From Escherichia coli 042 (lineage in GTDB: Bacteria; Pseudomonadota; Gammaproteobacteria; Enterobacterales; Enterobacteriaceae), in assembly GCF_000027125.1 (NCBI RefSeq), contig NC_017626.1: a stretch of 64,000 bases of DNA; one strand, written 5' to 3'. Position 1 is the first letter of the stretch, and every line of letters starts with the position of its first letter. Shown here piece after piece: positions 44,501 through 50,500 of the stretch. A program made the position numbers.

Positions 44501-47500
44501 CTTAGTTGCCAGTTACGCGAAAAATAGGGGTCCACCAGCTTTTCGCCTTCCGTCGCCTTAATAAAGGCAAATTGTAAGCGAATACCGTTATCGCGCATTT
44601 TTGCCACCCGCTGCCAGTCGATCCGCTCCTGCCAGCGCGAAACATCTATTCCGTGAATGGTGTAACTGGCAGGAATGCGAATAGCGAAAGATTTAACCGG
44701 GCGATAACCGTAGAAGTGGATGTAGTCTTTAATCTGAATTGCTGTCGAATAGAAAAAATTCACCGTCTGACGCGGATAAATTGCAACGATGGAAATTAGC
44801 CCAAGAGCGCATAATAAAGCGGTGAATTTTTTTCGACTGGTGATTCTCAACTGCATTGGTTTCATCCCTGAATGTCAGCACCAAAGGCTGACAATAACCA
44901 AAGCGGCTATAGTACGGTGCTCACCACCAGGCGTGGAAGTGGTGAACCGGACCAATACCGTGACCAACTTCCAGCGTGTCGGCCTGGGCTAATGCCGATG
45001 AAAGCCAGCTTTTTGCCTCCTGTACGGTGTCAGCCCAGTTTGTATGGCGCGGGTGCAGTGCAGCCAACGCCGCAGAGAGCGTACAACCAGTGCCGTGAGT
45101 GTTTTTGGTCATAATGCGCTGTGCGGTAAACCGTTGTTCACCCTCGCGGGTAAACAGCCAGTCCGGGCTTTGCTCATCATCCAGATGACCACCTTTCATT
45201 AGCACTGCGCCACAGCCCATCGCCAACAGCGATCGCCCTTGTTCCAGCATTTCCTGTTCGGTGCGCGCGTGTGGCGCGTCGAGCAAGGCGGCTGCTTCGG
45301 GCAAGTTTGGCGTTATTAATGAAACCTGTGGCAATAATCGACTGCGTAGCGTGGCAACTGCCGAAGGTGAAAGCAGCGGGTCGCCGCTTTTTGCCAGCAT
45401 AACGGTGTCGAGTACCACGTTTTGGATCTGATAACGTTGCAGCCGTTCTGCCACCGCTTCAACAATATCGGTTTCCGCCAACATACCGATTTTAGTGGTA
45501 TCGATTCGCACATCGCTGAACACCGAATCGAGCTGGGCGGCGACAAAATCAGGCTCAATGCGATAAACCGACTGTACGCCACGGGTATTTTGCGCCACCA
45601 GCGCGGTGATTACCGAGCAACCATACGCACCTAGCGCCGAGAAGGTTTTAAGATCGGCCTGAATCCCCGCACCACCACTCGGATCAGTACCGGCAATCGT
45701 CAGAGCGTTAATTCGTTTCATGCCTGCACCTCCGGCGTCAATTGCCAGAGCGCATCAAGGAAATGTGGAACAAAACTGCCTGGCCCCTCGCTTCTGGCGA
45801 CTGCGCGTTCTCCGGCTTGTTTCATCCAGTGACAGGCAGATGCGACGTTTTCCAGCATATCGCCGGGTAACGCACAACAGGCAGCGACAACCGCCGATAA
45901 TGCACAGCCAGTTCCTACCACTTTGGTCATTAACGGATCGCCACCGTGAATGCCAATGATACGATGTCCATCGGTAACATAATCCACCTCGCCAGTGACC
46001 ACGACGATTGCGCCAGTTTCCCGTGCCAGTGTTTGTGCAGCGGGTATCGCATTAGCTGCGGCGTCAGTGGTATCCACTCCCCGTCCGCCATTAGCAATGC
46101 CAGCTAATGCCATGATTTCCGAAGCATTACCACGTATGGCTGTTGGCTTATGAGACAGAAGTTCCAGACAAAAACAGCGGCGATAGTCGAGTGCACCAAC
46201 CGCAACCGGATCAAGCGTCCAGGGTGTTTGAGAGCGTTTTGCTTGCTCAACGGCGGCACGCATCGCCTGTGCGCGTGGCTGCGTCAGTGTGCCAACGTTA
46301 ATCAGCAACGCACTGGCGATAGCCGCAAACTGACTGGCTTCTTCGGTTTCGATAACCATCGCTGGCGATGCACCGAGCGCCAGTAAGGTATTGGCAGTAA
46401 AAGTTTGCACCACATCATTGGTCATGCAATGCACAAGAGGGGAATGTTGGTGAAAAAGGTGTAACGCGTGCGCAGATTGCGCGGAACTCAGCAGGTCGAC
46501 TTGCATAGTTTGCTCCTGCCATAACGTGAAGAAGCAATGACCTGGTGGTCCGTGACTTCCCTACGCTGGCATTATCCAGATCAGGTGATACGGGTATTTC
46601 TCAGCCTTCACGCAGAAGGGCACCCCGAGTCGTTTGATTGCGATGATAAATCGCAGAGGAGGATGGTAATGTCCAGCGCACCCGTTGTAAACGAGGAAAA
46701 ACGGCAGTTTTACAATCGCGTTAATAAATTATTTGATATATGAATCCAGCACCTTCAGAACGACATCCAGATCTTCTTCACGTTTTAGCTCATCCCCCTG
46801 GTGAACGATGTGTTCCGTCAGATGACCTTTAATCACTTCCCGCATCAGACCGTTTACCGCGCCACGGATAGCAGCAATCTGTTGTAAAACTGCAGCGCAT
46901 TCGTGCGGCTCGTCGAGCATTTTCTTGAGCGCCACGACCTGGCCCTGAATCTTACTGGCACGCGCTTTCAGTTTCTGTTTATCACGGATGGTATGAGACA
47001 TGGCAACACCTGGTTAACAAGAATATGAAAAATCATAGCACTATTAATCTACTGGGGGGTAGTATCAGGTACTGGGGGGGAGTAGAATAAGATTGCCGAA
47101 TTAATACTAAGAATTATTATCATGACCGAATTTACCACTCTTCTTCAGCAAGGAAACGCCTGGTTCTTCATCCCCAGCGCCATCTTACTTGGTGCGCTTC
47201 ATGGCCTGGAACCAGGGCACTCAAAAACGATGATGGCGGCGTTTATCATCGCCATCAAAGGCACCATTAAACAAGCGGTGATGCTCGGACTGGCAGCAAC
47301 TATTTCGCATACCGCAGTGGTCTGGTTAATTGCCTTTGGCGGGATGGTGATCAGCAAGCGCTTTACTGCTCAATCAGCAGAACCGTGGCTCCAGCTGATT
47401 TCCGCAGTGATCATTATTGGCACCGCGTTCTGGATGTTCTGGCGTACCTGGCGCGGCGAACGCAACTGGCTGGAGAATATGCACGAGTATGATTATGAGC

Positions 47501-50500
47501 ATCATCACCATCATCACGATCACGAACATCATCAAGACCACGAACATCACCACGACCATGGACATCATCACCATCACGAACATGGCGAGTATCAGGATGC
47601 CCATGCACGAGCCCATGCCAATGACATTAAACGACGCTTTGATGGTAGAGAGGTCACCAACTGGCAAATTTTGTTATTTGGCTTAACCGGTGGCCTTATC
47701 CCCTGCCCGGCAGCAATTACCGTGCTATTGATATGCATTCAGTTGAAAGCCCTGACACTGGGCGCAACACTGGTCGTCAGTTTCAGCATTGGCCTGGCGT
47801 TTACGCTTGTCACCGTAGGCGTTGGCGCAGCAATCAGCGTTCAGCAGGTCGCAAAACGCTGGAGCGGATTTAACACTCTCGCTAAACGCGCCCCCTATTT
47901 TTCCAGTCTGTTGATTGGCTTAGTCGGTGTGTATATGGGCGTACATGGCTTCATGGGCATAATGTGATAACTCAATCCTTTAGGCTTGCATGTTATCTTC
48001 AGCCCAGGATGATTCTTAAATCAGCTATTTCCGCTGACTCTCTGCTCGCTAAGGATGCTTTTAGGGCATCCTTTCATTTACACTTTTTACGAAATCATGG
48101 GAGCACTAACAAAATATCGCTTGTCAGTTATATTGTATGGCAGGAAAGATATGCGACTGATATTACAGATCCCCAAAGTGGAGAGTTTATGACCATTAAA
48201 AATAAGATGTTACTGGGTGCGCTTTTGCTGGTTACCAGTGCCGCCTGGGCCGCACCAGCCACCGCGGGTTCGACCAATACCTCGGGAATTTCTAAGTATG
48301 AGTTAAGTAGTTTCATTGCTGACTTTAAGCATTTCAAACCAGGGGACACCGTACCAGAAATGTACCGTACCGATGAGTACAACATTAAGCAGTGGCAGTT
48401 GCGTAACCTGCCCGCGCCTGATGCCGGGACGCACTGGACCTATATGGGTGGCGCGTACGTGTTGATCAGCGACACCGACGGTAAAATCATTAAAGCCTAC
48501 GACGGTGAGATTTTTTATCATCGCTAAAAAAATCCCCCTCATCATGAGGGGGAAATGCAGACACCTTGTTATTTTTTATTATTAGCCACTTGCTCGTCTT
48601 GCTTGTTATTAGTCGTATTTCACGTTGATTAATGCGGTTGCCTCCAGTGCGCCAGATTTAACTTTGTTTGTATCGTAGACGTAGTAACTGGCTGTTATCG
48701 GAATTGAAACCGTTGTATCTGTAAGTTTTGACTTTGCCGCAATTTCTTTTAAATTTGTGTATCCTTTACTGCTGTTAGTGATATTTAAAAGTGTGACTGG
48801 CGAACCATTACTTTCAAGAATAAATCCTACGCCATTATCTTCCGCACCTTTCAGTATTGTGTTGCTGTTGGTTAACAAGTCAGAACTTGATAAATACACC
48901 TGCATTTTCCGTGATGTTTGATTTTGTTGACCTAATAAACTTTTACAACGCAGAATAATATCCCCTTGTTTACTATTTATTGTTGCTTTGTTACCTGTGG
49001 CTGGTAATTGTGAAACGGGAATGCTGTCTAAAGTAATTAATAAATCGTCCGGTTTGCAGGTTGTGGTTATCGGGTTGTATGACAATGTCAGATTAAAGGA
49101 ATAGACACCTGCATTTTGTGCCAATGCATTTCTGTAGTTATTTACACATGCATCCCATGACTTGCCACCTAATAAACACAGTAGAAATTGTACTGCGGCA
49201 CTCCCGCGTGTCGATGATGAAGCACTGGATAATGTCGCAACACCATTAATCATCACTGAACCGCCGCCCCCCGCAGAAACATTCACTTTTGCATTACTGG
49301 CCGCAGGTGTCACCGTAACTGAATAACCACTGGTGAAACTGGTCTGATTATTTGACAACGTGATGTTGTTTTTATTGGTCCATTCAAAATGTAAATTTAA
49401 TTTTATGGTATCGTTATAAAGTCCAACAATAATATCCGACGGGCTCATAGGGGTGATAGTATTTGTACTCACGCATGACGAATCATTAAAAGTATGCTCA
49501 TATGTCGCCATTTGTGTTTGACTAAGTGCAAAATCCCCCTGAACAACCAAGTTGTGCTGAACAGATAACTCACTATAACATGCCGCATAGCTCACAGGCA
49601 TAACCATCATCATTAATATAAATTGCATTATGCGAATTTCCATAGAACCACCTGACTATTACTGGCAAATATAATTTCTACTTTCATCAATCTCTTTACC
49701 GAAGGTGATTGTGCATGAAAGTCCTTGTTGCTTATCAATTGCTACATTAACCGATGGCGGAACTTCATTGGTGCGAATAAATAACTGGCTTCCCTGGCCG
49801 ACAACGCCAATATTATGACCATGGATATCATTGACTTCATAACCAAACGTTAATGGTTGCCCATCCGTTCTTAACGCTTTTATAAACCAGGGCTTGCGCT
49901 GATCGGTATCAAAATTAACCAGTACAACCGCGCCGCGATAAGGTGCGGCAATTTTCCGGTTACCGCGCAATTCTGCTTCGCTATCGCTTTGCGACACATC
50001 CAGCATCAGGTGATTTTCCCGATAAGGTGTCATTCCGTCGTATACCACCACTCCATTACGGTTTGTTGTGCGATATTTTTGCCCATTGACATAAGCATCT
50101 TTAATTCCTGGCGCATTCATCACTGCAAACGTTTCGGAAAGACGGTTCGCCAGATTAACGCCACCCGACCAGGCGACAATGCCCCCTGAAACACTGGCTC
50201 CAGCCTGTCGATAAGTACTCGACTGACTATAACTGCCATTCACCGTTGCCACCGGCGCGTTCCAGGTTAAATTCGCTCCAGCTGTTGTTTCATTTCCCTG
50301 ATGCTGATGACTCAGGTTGACCCCATAGTTAAATTGATCCCGGTTTCCAACGGTTCCCGATAATCCCGTATTATTTGAGGCAAAACCCTGATCATCAAAC
50401 GTCGTTGAGTTAGACATATATATTTGCCGACGAGGCGTCGTAACGTCATCACCCCAATCAAAGGGAATCGATATAAAAATATTAAAACGTTTCTCTTCAT

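What the first reader, a model, noticed from the sequence alone, without database searches (positions are those of the whole stretch)
47002..47600. Paired G-tract RcnR operators and a histidine-rich repetitive coding segment in rcnA
The divergent rcnR-rcnA promoter region contains two TACT-G(6-7)-N-AGTA sites 20 bp apart (47050-47064, 47070-47084). Their G-tract lengths differ (G6 vs G7), and such tracts are slippage-prone. rcnA also contains a His/Asp/Glu-rich low-complexity loop encoded by repetitive cat/cac/gac codons (about 47500-47590), whose length is likely to vary between strains.
Basis: partly seen in the sequence, partly recalled or inferred. Interest (0 to 1): 0.3.

Follow-up and report, generated by a model that had tools for sequence, protein, structure and literature searches.

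The report
Known RcnR operators and variable RcnA His-loop

Summary
TACTGGGGGGTAGTA (47050-47064) and TACTGGGGGGGAGTA (47070-47084) lie between divergent rcnR (46729-47001, -) and rcnA (47122-47967, +). They are the published tandem TACT-G6-N-AGTA RcnR operators, and the sites and their spacer are identical to K-12.

"G6 vs G7" is not a slippage difference. Both sites are 15 bp, with N=T in one and N=G in the other. That asymmetry and its orientation are kept in 63-68 of 71 species.

Length variation is real. Among about 5,340 complete E. coli genomes:
- The run of seven G's in site 2 is G6 in 126 genomes and G8 in 105.
- Site 1 is G5 in about 19-28 genomes and G7 in 29.
- G6 is fixed in the O111 clone: 47 genomes are identical over 1,863 bp, including a genome I recall as Sanger-finished. 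G8 is in all 9 genomes carrying the O121 haplotype.
- Some scattered cases are probably assembly errors.
- One genome has a 20-bp deletion that fuses the two sites into one.

The RcnA His-loop (core 47482-47586) gives proteins of 261-288 aa, always in frame, through changes in 6-bp and 18-bp repeat copy number. About 83% of sampled genomes have the K-12 length. The window's 281-aa allele is rare, about 1%. The orthologous Salmonella repeat is the MLVA marker STTR5.

Verdict: already known; low interest.

The parts
46729..47001 (-). rcnR, the Ni(II)/Co(II)-responsive repressor (90 aa). It contains the RASK motif and H3, C35, H60 and H64.
   Evidence: NCBIfam NF011613 equivalog, 197 bits; Pfam PF02583. 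The protein is identical in all 18 E. coli loci that hold the whole gene.
47002..47121 (.). The 120-bp rcnR-rcnA intergenic region, holding both promoters and both operators.
   Evidence: It differs from K-12 W3110 only at 47089 (A instead of C).
47050..47064 (+). RcnR site 1, TACT-G6-T-AGTA, the rcnR-proximal site. G run at 47054-47059.
   Evidence: Literature motif from PMC7055735 and PMC3902906. The same 15-mer is present in 68 of 71 species.
47070..47084 (+). RcnR site 2, TACT-G6-G-AGTA, the rcnA-proximal site. The run of seven G's is at 47074-47080 and is the more length-variable of the two.
47083..47088 (+). Inferred rcnA -10 hexamer TAGAAT, overlapping the AGTA half of site 2.
   Evidence: GAAT directly after site 2 is kept in about 80-90% of 67 species, while the DNA beyond it is not conserved. 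The transcription start was not verified here.
47032..47040 (-). Inferred extended -10 of rcnR (TGCTATGAT on the minus strand).
   Evidence: The TGnTA pattern is conserved to the left of site 1 in 70 species. This is inference only.
47122..47967 (+). rcnA, the Ni/Co efflux protein. This allele is 281 aa.
   Evidence: NF007454 at 563 bits and PF03824 NicO. The loop is identical to that of strain ECCTRSRTH03, whose 1,301-bp locus is 99.8% identical.
47449..47655 (+). Central hydrophilic loop of RcnA (residues 110-178) between two hydrophobic blocks. The His-rich core is residues 121-155, at 47482-47586.
   Evidence: Hydropathy and motif mapping. 18-bp periodicity at 47509-47583. Allele comparison.
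48189..48527 (+). rcnB, the periplasmic accessory protein of the efflux system.
   Evidence: Pfam PF11776 RcnB, 67.8 bits. RefSeq annotates rcnB downstream of rcnA in the matching loci.

Best explanation
The region is the E. coli rcnR-rcnA(B) nickel/cobalt efflux locus.

Operator mechanism, from published work on the same sequence. Metal-free RcnR tetramers bind the two tandem TACT-G6-N-AGTA sites, one tetramer per site. [quoted passage not shown] Binding represses both divergent promoters. Ni(II) or Co(II) binding releases RcnR, and rcnA-rcnB is then expressed.

Promoter layout, inferred here from conservation. Site 2 overlaps a -10-like TAGAAT hexamer for rcnA. Site 1 sits just upstream of an extended -10 for rcnR.

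The two sites, shown here. They are not slipped copies of each other. They are two 15-bp sites with N=T and N=G, conserved in that order across genera.

G-run variation, shown here. The G runs mutate by gain or loss of 1 bp. The run of seven G's in site 2 changes about four to five times as often as the run of six in site 1. Such alleles can become fixed in clones: G6 in O111, G8 in O121. Their effect on repression or promoter spacing is inferred, not shown.

His-rich loop, shown here. The loop lies between the two membrane-embedded halves of RcnA and is encoded by imperfect 18-bp repeats and, in some lineages, perfect 6-bp repeats. These expand and contract in frame by slippage or unequal recombination, giving proteins of 261-288 aa. 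The loop is thought to bind Ni/Co (literature). What the length differences do functionally is unknown.
For: Identity:
- The family matches and the motif search place rcnR, rcnA and rcnB and find exactly two sites.
- The 64-bp operator stretch is identical to K-12 MG1655 and to 4,814 of 5,345 E. coli genomes.

Literature:
- They form a tandem type 1 operator with 1:1 binding at the TACT/AGTA repeats and A-form G-tracts (PMC3902906).
- RcnR is a tetramer that leaves the DNA when Co/Ni is present (PMC7105576).

Conservation (pattern scan):
- 71 species carry the tandem pair.
- Site 1 is TACTGGGGGGTAGTA in 68 of 71, and site 2 is TACTGGGGGGGAGTA in 63 of 71, while the 5-bp spacer has 27 variants.
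- rcnR is always upstream on the opposite strand (67 of 67), and rcnA is always downstream (62 of 62).
- GAAT after site 2 is conserved.

G-run variation:
- Site 2 is G6 in 126 genomes and G8 in 105.
- Site 1 is G5 in about 19-28 genomes and G7 in 29.
- 47 genomes, all that carry a serotype label being O111, are 100% identical over 1,863 bp including G6. The nearest O26:H11 haplotype differs only by the 1-bp length.
- 9 of 9 genomes with the O121 haplotype have G8.
- A 20-bp deletion between the direct repeats leaves a single site in strain 97_3250.

Loop variation:
- Alleles are 261, 265, 269, 273, 274, 278, 281, 283, 285, 287 and 288 aa.
- They carry (CACGAG)3/5/7, (CACGAC)4/5/6, or one to three copies of the 18-bp unit.
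- In an even sample of 60 genomes, 50 have the K-12 length, and every other full-length span differs by a multiple of 3.
- The Salmonella orthologue's 6-bp repeat is MLVA locus STTR5 in yohM (PMC4487797, PMC5183578). It lost (HD)9 during passage in animals (PMC6760104).
- The E. coli loop is described as 67 aa with 17 His (PMC11247825), which matches the K-12 allele here.
Against: Nothing contradicts the identification. The limits are these:
- RcnR binding was not tested here and rests on the literature. I could not read the primary papers (Iwig & Chivers 2009, Blaha 2011, Rodrigue 2005), only papers that cite them.
- The promoter hexamers are inferred. The simple sigma-70 scan did not find them. 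Its one hit, TTGCCG-16-TATTAT, ends 1 nt before the ATG.
- Some of the 1-bp G-run variants are probably assembly errors. Strain 25DN has G5/G5 and RM8082 has G5/G9. ER2683, which I recall is a K-12-derived lab strain, shows G6. By my reading of the accession series, many carriers are long-read-only assemblies.
- About 240 of the 530 non-identical genomes were not resolved by type.
Confidence: 0.93

Rival explanations
1. The G-run length variants among E. coli genomes are homopolymer errors of long-read assemblies and not real alleles.
For: - Carriers are scattered across unrelated backgrounds, and by my reading of the accession series many are long-read-only assemblies.
- ER2683, which I recall is a K-12-derived lab strain, has G6 in site 2 although K-12 has G7.
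- 25DN has both runs shortened (G5/G5), and RM8082 has G5/G9.
- The window itself has a frameshifting G9 run in dgcE.
Against: - 47 genomes are identical over 1,863 bp and all have G6. They come from several laboratories and include O111:H- 11128, which I recall was Sanger-finished. The sister O26:H11 haplotype has G7.
- All 9 genomes with the O121 haplotype have G8.
- 1-bp variants at site 2 also occur in 5 other species' genomes.
- Errors therefore explain some of the cases, not all of them.
Confidence: 0.3
2. The G6 versus G7 difference between the two sites in this window is itself a recent slippage event: one site gained or lost a G.
For: Only the appearance of the sequence. Homopolymers of this length do slip.
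Against: - Both sites are exactly 15 bp and fit TACT-G6-N-AGTA.
- The pairing of N=T at the rcnR-proximal site with N=G at the rcnA-proximal site is found in 63-68 of 71 species with RcnR identity down to 67%, while the spacer between the sites is free to vary.
- 4,814 of 5,345 E. coli genomes are identical here.
Confidence: 0.02
3. The site-2 G run is a true phase-variation (contingency) switch that flips rcnA expression at high frequency.
For: - The run lies between the inferred -35 and -10 positions of the rcnA promoter and inside an operator.
- Lengths of 5 to 9 are seen.
Against: - A run of 7 is, from general knowledge, short for a contingency locus.
- 90% of genomes are identical across the 64-bp operator.
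- The variants are clonally stable rather than mixed within clones: 47 of 47 O111 and 9 of 9 O121.
Confidence: 0.05
4. His-loop length variation is selectively neutral repeat drift with no effect on metal handling. The alternative is that it tunes Ni/Co capacity.
For: - 83% of sampled genomes share one length.
- Changes follow repeat units and stay in frame.
- The orthologous Salmonella repeat behaves as a fast neutral typing marker (PMC4487797, PMC5183578).
Against: - All variants preserve the reading frame and the His-rich character, which suggests constraint on the loop.
- Authors of PMC5183578 argue that extreme lengths are selected against.
- No functional data on either side were available to me.
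Confidence: 0.55

Closest known systems
E. coli K-12 rcnR-rcnA tandem type 1 RcnR operator (Iwig & Chivers 2009; Blaha et al. 2011, as summarised in PMC7055735 and PMC3902906)
   Same: The two 15-bp sites, the 5-bp spacer TCAGG, the position between divergent rcnR and rcnA, and the RcnR protein are all identical.
   Different: There is one SNP in the intergenic region outside the sites (47089, A instead of C). The rcnA allele is 281 aa instead of 274 aa.
Salmonella Typhimurium VNTR locus STTR5 in yohM (= rcnA)
   Same: It is an in-frame repeat encoding His-Asp in the central loop of the same protein. Copy number varies between strains and even during passage (PMC4487797, PMC5183578, PMC6760104). 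E. coli O157 alleles carry the same kind of (CACGAC)n array, with n = 4-6.
   Different: The window's allele has no long perfect hexamer array, only imperfect 18-bp units at 80% match. Most E. coli genomes share one length, so the locus is far less variable than STTR5.
Homopolymer-tract promoter phase variation as described for some Neisseria, Haemophilus and Bordetella surface-protein genes (recalled from general knowledge)
   Same: A G run sits inside promoter/operator DNA, and its length differs between strains.
   Different: The run is short (6-7). Variants are rare (about 5%) and clonally stable. No ON/OFF phenotype is known.
CsoR/RcnR-family type 1 operators in general
   Same: [quoted passage not shown] The family-wide spacing is 6-9 bp (PMC3902906), a range that also covers the G6 and G8 variants of site 2.
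   Different: None that bears on membership.

Membership tests
RcnR tandem type 1 operator | Sequence TACT-G6-N-AGTA | tested here: met
   Two exact matches at 47050-47064 and 47070-47084, and none elsewhere in 64 kb even with 2 mismatches allowed.
RcnR tandem type 1 operator | Two sites located between divergently transcribed rcnR and rcnA | tested here: met
   rcnR is at 46729-47001 (-) and rcnA at 47122-47967 (+). The same layout holds in 67 of 67 and 62 of 62 species loci.
RcnR tandem type 1 operator | Metal-free RcnR binds the sites, and Ni/Co releases it | not testable with these tools
   This rests on the literature for the identical K-12 sequence (PMC7055735, PMC3902906, PMC7105576). 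Sequence identity to K-12 was shown.
RcnR (CsoR/RcnR family, DUF156) repressor | Match to the RcnR equivalog model above its cut-off | tested here: met
   NF011613 scores 197.3 bits against a cut-off of 138. FrmR scores only 76.5 against 133.
RcnA / NicO Ni-Co efflux protein | NicO-family membrane protein with a central His-rich loop | tested here: met
   PF03824 at 243 bits and NF007454 at 563 bits. The loop at residues 110-178 holds 23 His and lies between two hydrophobic blocks.
Coding VNTR (STTR5-like) | Tandem repeat with a unit that is a multiple of 3 bp inside the ORF | tested here: met
   18-bp period, 4.2 copies, 80% match at 47509-47583. Other alleles carry perfect 6-bp arrays.
Coding VNTR (STTR5-like) | Copy number differs between strains, always in frame | tested here: met
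   Proteins of 261-288 aa. Full-length spans in the sample differ from the query by -63 to +18 bp, all multiples of 3.
Phase-variable homopolymer promoter | High-frequency reversible length switching, seen as mixed lengths within a clone | tested here: not met
   47 of 47 genomes with the O111 haplotype have G6, and 9 of 9 with the O121 haplotype have G8. 90% of all genomes are identical across the operator.
Phase-variable homopolymer promoter | Tract length changes gene expression | not testable with these tools
   This needs reporter fusions. Only the position inside the operator and inferred promoter is known.

The most novel reading that the evidence does not exclude
The run of seven G's in RcnR site 2 lies inside an operator and, by inference, in the spacer of the rcnA promoter. 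On this reading it acts as a slippage-driven tuning knob. The G6 allele fixed in the O111 clone, the G8 allele in the O121 clone, and the rare single-site 20-bp deletion would then be natural operator or promoter-strength variants that change basal Ni/Co efflux.
Probability: 0.2. Interest if true: 0.4.

Novelty: already known. Interest (0 to 1): 0.15.

Why it matters
The locus is a textbook metal-efflux switch, so finding it in another E. coli genome adds nothing by itself.

The population survey adds three modest points:
- The two operator sites are a conserved asymmetric pair, not slipped copies of each other.
- Natural 1-bp alleles of site 2 are fixed in two clones that I know as Shiga-toxin-producing lineages (O111 and O121). 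These are ready-made material for testing how half-site spacing and promoter spacing affect RcnR repression.
- The E. coli RcnA loop behaves as a weak version of the Salmonella typing marker STTR5. This matters for anyone using rcnA length in typing or for studying how many histidines the loop needs.

Tried and rejected
- **Neutral control tract.** I used the intergenic G7 run at 31004-31010 to gauge homopolymer error or slippage rates. The region is accessory, present in only 520 genomes, and is itself polymorphic, so it was uninformative.
- **Counting the 20-bp deletion.** I searched with a junction query. Wild-type genomes were reported as two joined pieces with 100% coverage, so the count could not be read. 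The only bound is the 9 genomes with under 80% coverage, of which one was verified (L016).
- **Generic E. coli MLVA locus CVN014.** I suspected it might be the rcnA repeat. I found no support for that. Its high variability within ST131 (PMC3407997) does not fit the uniform rcnA length seen there, so I dropped the idea.
- **Primary papers.** The primary papers I tried (Iwig & Chivers 2009, Rodrigue 2005) are not in the library, and I did not look up Blaha 2011. I relied on papers that cite them.
- **Promoter scan.** The sigma-70 scan gave only an implausible hit ending 1 nt before the ATG. The promoter elements in this report come from cross-species conservation instead.
- **G-to-T interruption of site 1.** The variant in L012 turned out to be a singleton.
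Full report
**What is there**

The window region 46729-48527 carries three genes:
- rcnR (46729-47001, minus strand; NF011613 equivalog at 197 bits, PF02583)
- rcnA (47122-47967, plus strand; NF007454 at 563 bits, PF03824 NicO)
- rcnB (48189-48527; PF11776)

RefSeq annotation of matching E. coli loci gives the same names, with thiM and its TPP riboswitch to the left.

The 120-bp intergenic region holds TACTGGGGGGTAGTA at 47050-47064 and TACTGGGGGGGAGTA at 47070-47084. A search for TACTGGGGGGNAGTA allowing up to 2 mismatches finds only these two sites in 64 kb. Shuffled sequence gives 0.15 on average.

**What the sites are**

The literature describes exactly this arrangement. 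[quoted passage not shown] They form a tandem type 1 operator. [quoted passage not shown] RcnR is a tetramer that leaves the DNA when Co or Ni is present (PMC7105576).

The window's 64-bp operator stretch is identical to K-12 MG1655 and to 4,814 of 5,345 E. coli genomes. The whole intergenic region differs from K-12 W3110 at one base outside the sites. RcnR protein is identical in all 18 E. coli loci examined. Binding itself was not tested here and rests on those papers. The primary papers I tried (Iwig & Chivers 2009, Rodrigue 2005) are not held in the library, and I did not look up Blaha 2011.

**G6 versus G7**

Both sites are 15 bp and fit the published motif. Position N is T in site 1 and G in site 2, and that G extends the run to seven. 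This is not a slipped copy.

A pattern scan of one genome per species found 71 species with the tandem pair: Enterobacterales, Vibrio and Shewanella. The scan fixed TACTGGGGG...AGTA-N5-TACTGGGGG and left the other positions free.
- Site 1 is TACTGGGGGGTAGTA in 68 of 71 species.
- Site 2 is TACTGGGGGGGAGTA in 63 of 71.
- The 5-bp spacer has 27 different sequences.
- Wherever the genes lie within the held DNA, rcnR is upstream on the opposite strand (67 of 67) and rcnA is downstream (62 of 62). RcnR identity goes down to 67%.

The four bases after site 2 are GAAT in about 80-90% of species. Together with the site's TA they make a -10-like TAGAAT at 47083-47088. To the left of site 1 a conserved TGnTA on the minus strand fits an extended -10 for rcnR (TGCTATGAT, 47040-47032). 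These promoter assignments are inference. The simple promoter scan did not find them.

**G-run length variation in E. coli**

Queries specific to each variant gave these counts, each out of about 5,340 genomes that carry the locus:

| Site | Run length | Genomes |
|---|---|---|
| Site 2 | G6 | 126 |
| Site 2 | G8 | 105 |
| Site 1 | G5 | about 19-28 |
| Site 1 | G7 | 29 |

All seven non-identical genomes that happened to fall in an even sample had their change inside one of the two sites. One of them, strain 97_3250, has a 20-bp deletion between the direct repeats that leaves a single TACTGGGGGGGAGTA site.

Some variants are probably assembly errors. Strain 25DN has G5/G5 and RM8082 has G5/G9. 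ER2683, which I recall is a K-12-derived lab strain, shows G6. By my reading of the accession series, many carriers are long-read-only assemblies.

Error cannot explain all of them:
- 47 genomes, all of those with a serotype label being O111, come from several laboratories. They include strain 11128, which I recall as Sanger-finished. They are 100% identical over 1,863 bp including G6.
- The next-best haplotype (O26:H11 and relatives) differs only by being 1 bp longer.
- All 9 genomes with the O121 haplotype have G8.
- Site-2 variants of plus or minus 1 bp also occur in 5 of the other species, and none occur at site 1.

So slippage happens. It is more frequent in the longer run and is heritable. 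It is clonally stable rather than phase-variable.

The family's type 1 sites span 6-9 bp between the inverted repeats (PMC3902906), so G6 and G8 sites may still bind RcnR. Whether affinity or promoter spacing changes is untested.

**The His-rich loop**

RcnA residues 110-178 (window 47449-47655) form a hydrophilic loop between two hydrophobic blocks. The core, residues 121-155 (47482-47586), has 21 His in 35 residues. Its DNA has an 18-bp period with 4.2 copies at 80% match.

Across fetched E. coli loci the protein is 261, 265, 269, 273, 274, 278, 281, 283, 285, 287 or 288 aa. The differences are repeat-unit changes:
- (CACGAG)3/5/7
- (CACGAC)4/5/6 in O157:H7 and its relatives
- one to three copies of CATCATCACGATCACGAA
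- a 39-bp deletion between CATCATCAC repeats

In an even sample of 60 genomes, 50 have the K-12 length. The eight other full-length spans differ from the query by -63 to +18 bp, always a multiple of 3. One further row is a truncation by IS3.

The window's allele has 8 more loop residues than K-12. It is exactly matched in about 51-62 genomes, roughly 1%.

Between species the loop ranges far more widely, including (HD)24 in Hafnia and (HE)10 in a Citrobacter.

This behaviour is already known in the sister genus. The 6-bp repeat in Salmonella yohM (= rcnA) is MLVA locus STTR5 (PMC4487797, PMC5183578), and an (HD)9 deletion arose during passage in animals (PMC6760104). The E. coli loop has been described as 67 aa with 17 His and is proposed to bind or chelate nickel (PMC11247825), which matches the K-12 allele here.

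**Verdict**

Everything central to the finding is already known, so interest is low.

The only mildly new material is the population picture. Plus-or-minus-1 operator alleles are fixed in the O111 and O121 clones, and a natural single-site deletion exists. These could serve as natural test cases for how RcnR reads half-site spacing.

Noticed in passing
window 6008-9326 (G run at 6421-6429): dgcE (yegE, diguanylate cyclase) is split into two overlapping ORFs by a frameshift at a run of nine G's. K-12 W3110 has GGGGGGTG at the same place, so the window has a T-to-G change plus one extra G. This is either a real pseudogene or a homopolymer error in the assembly.
   Followed up: partly
window about 46541-46637 (-): A TPP riboswitch lies upstream of thiM, just to the left of rcnR. 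The position is transferred from the RefSeq annotation of the matching K-12 locus. It accounts for the mechanical ORF at 46537-46743.
   Followed up: no
window 31004-31010: There is a G7 run in AT-rich intergenic DNA of an accessory region found in only 520 of 5,426 E. coli genomes. Only 2 genomes match the 64-bp stretch exactly, and many are 1 bp longer, so this tract also varies in length.
   Followed up: partly
window 47965-47967: The rcnA stop codon is TGA here, where K-12 has CGA followed by TAA. This allele therefore lacks the C-terminal Arg, as do L002 and L003.
   Followed up: partly
window 47089: The base just after the inferred rcnA -10 hexamer is A here, C in most of the fetched E. 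coli loci including K-12, and T in strain H32 (L003).
   Followed up: no
L020 (PCP06021), L010 (AMSHJX01): rcnA is inactivated in some genomes: truncated by an IS3 insertion in L020 and interrupted by an internal stop in L010. About 57 of 5,426 genomes have no match to the locus at all.
   Followed up: partly
L008, L009 (L009 is O157:H7): In these two fetched loci (L009 is O157:H7) the DNA to the left of rcnR is not thiM and its riboswitch but a gene annotated as an outer membrane protein. The neighbourhood differs there.
   Followed up: no
L023, L033, L037, L045, L047, L054, L066, L067, L070, L071, L074, L076, L081, L085, L089: In these species RcnA is 358-377 aa because the loop carries an extra segment of roughly 100 residues that is not His-rich (for example ...TGHG.VELSIFEE...PHWRLR...). 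It may be a folded insert.
   Followed up: no
L064 (Vibrio diabolicus): Three tandem RcnR-type sites at offsets 0, 20 and 39 instead of two. The middle one is TACTGGGGGTAGTA.
   Followed up: no
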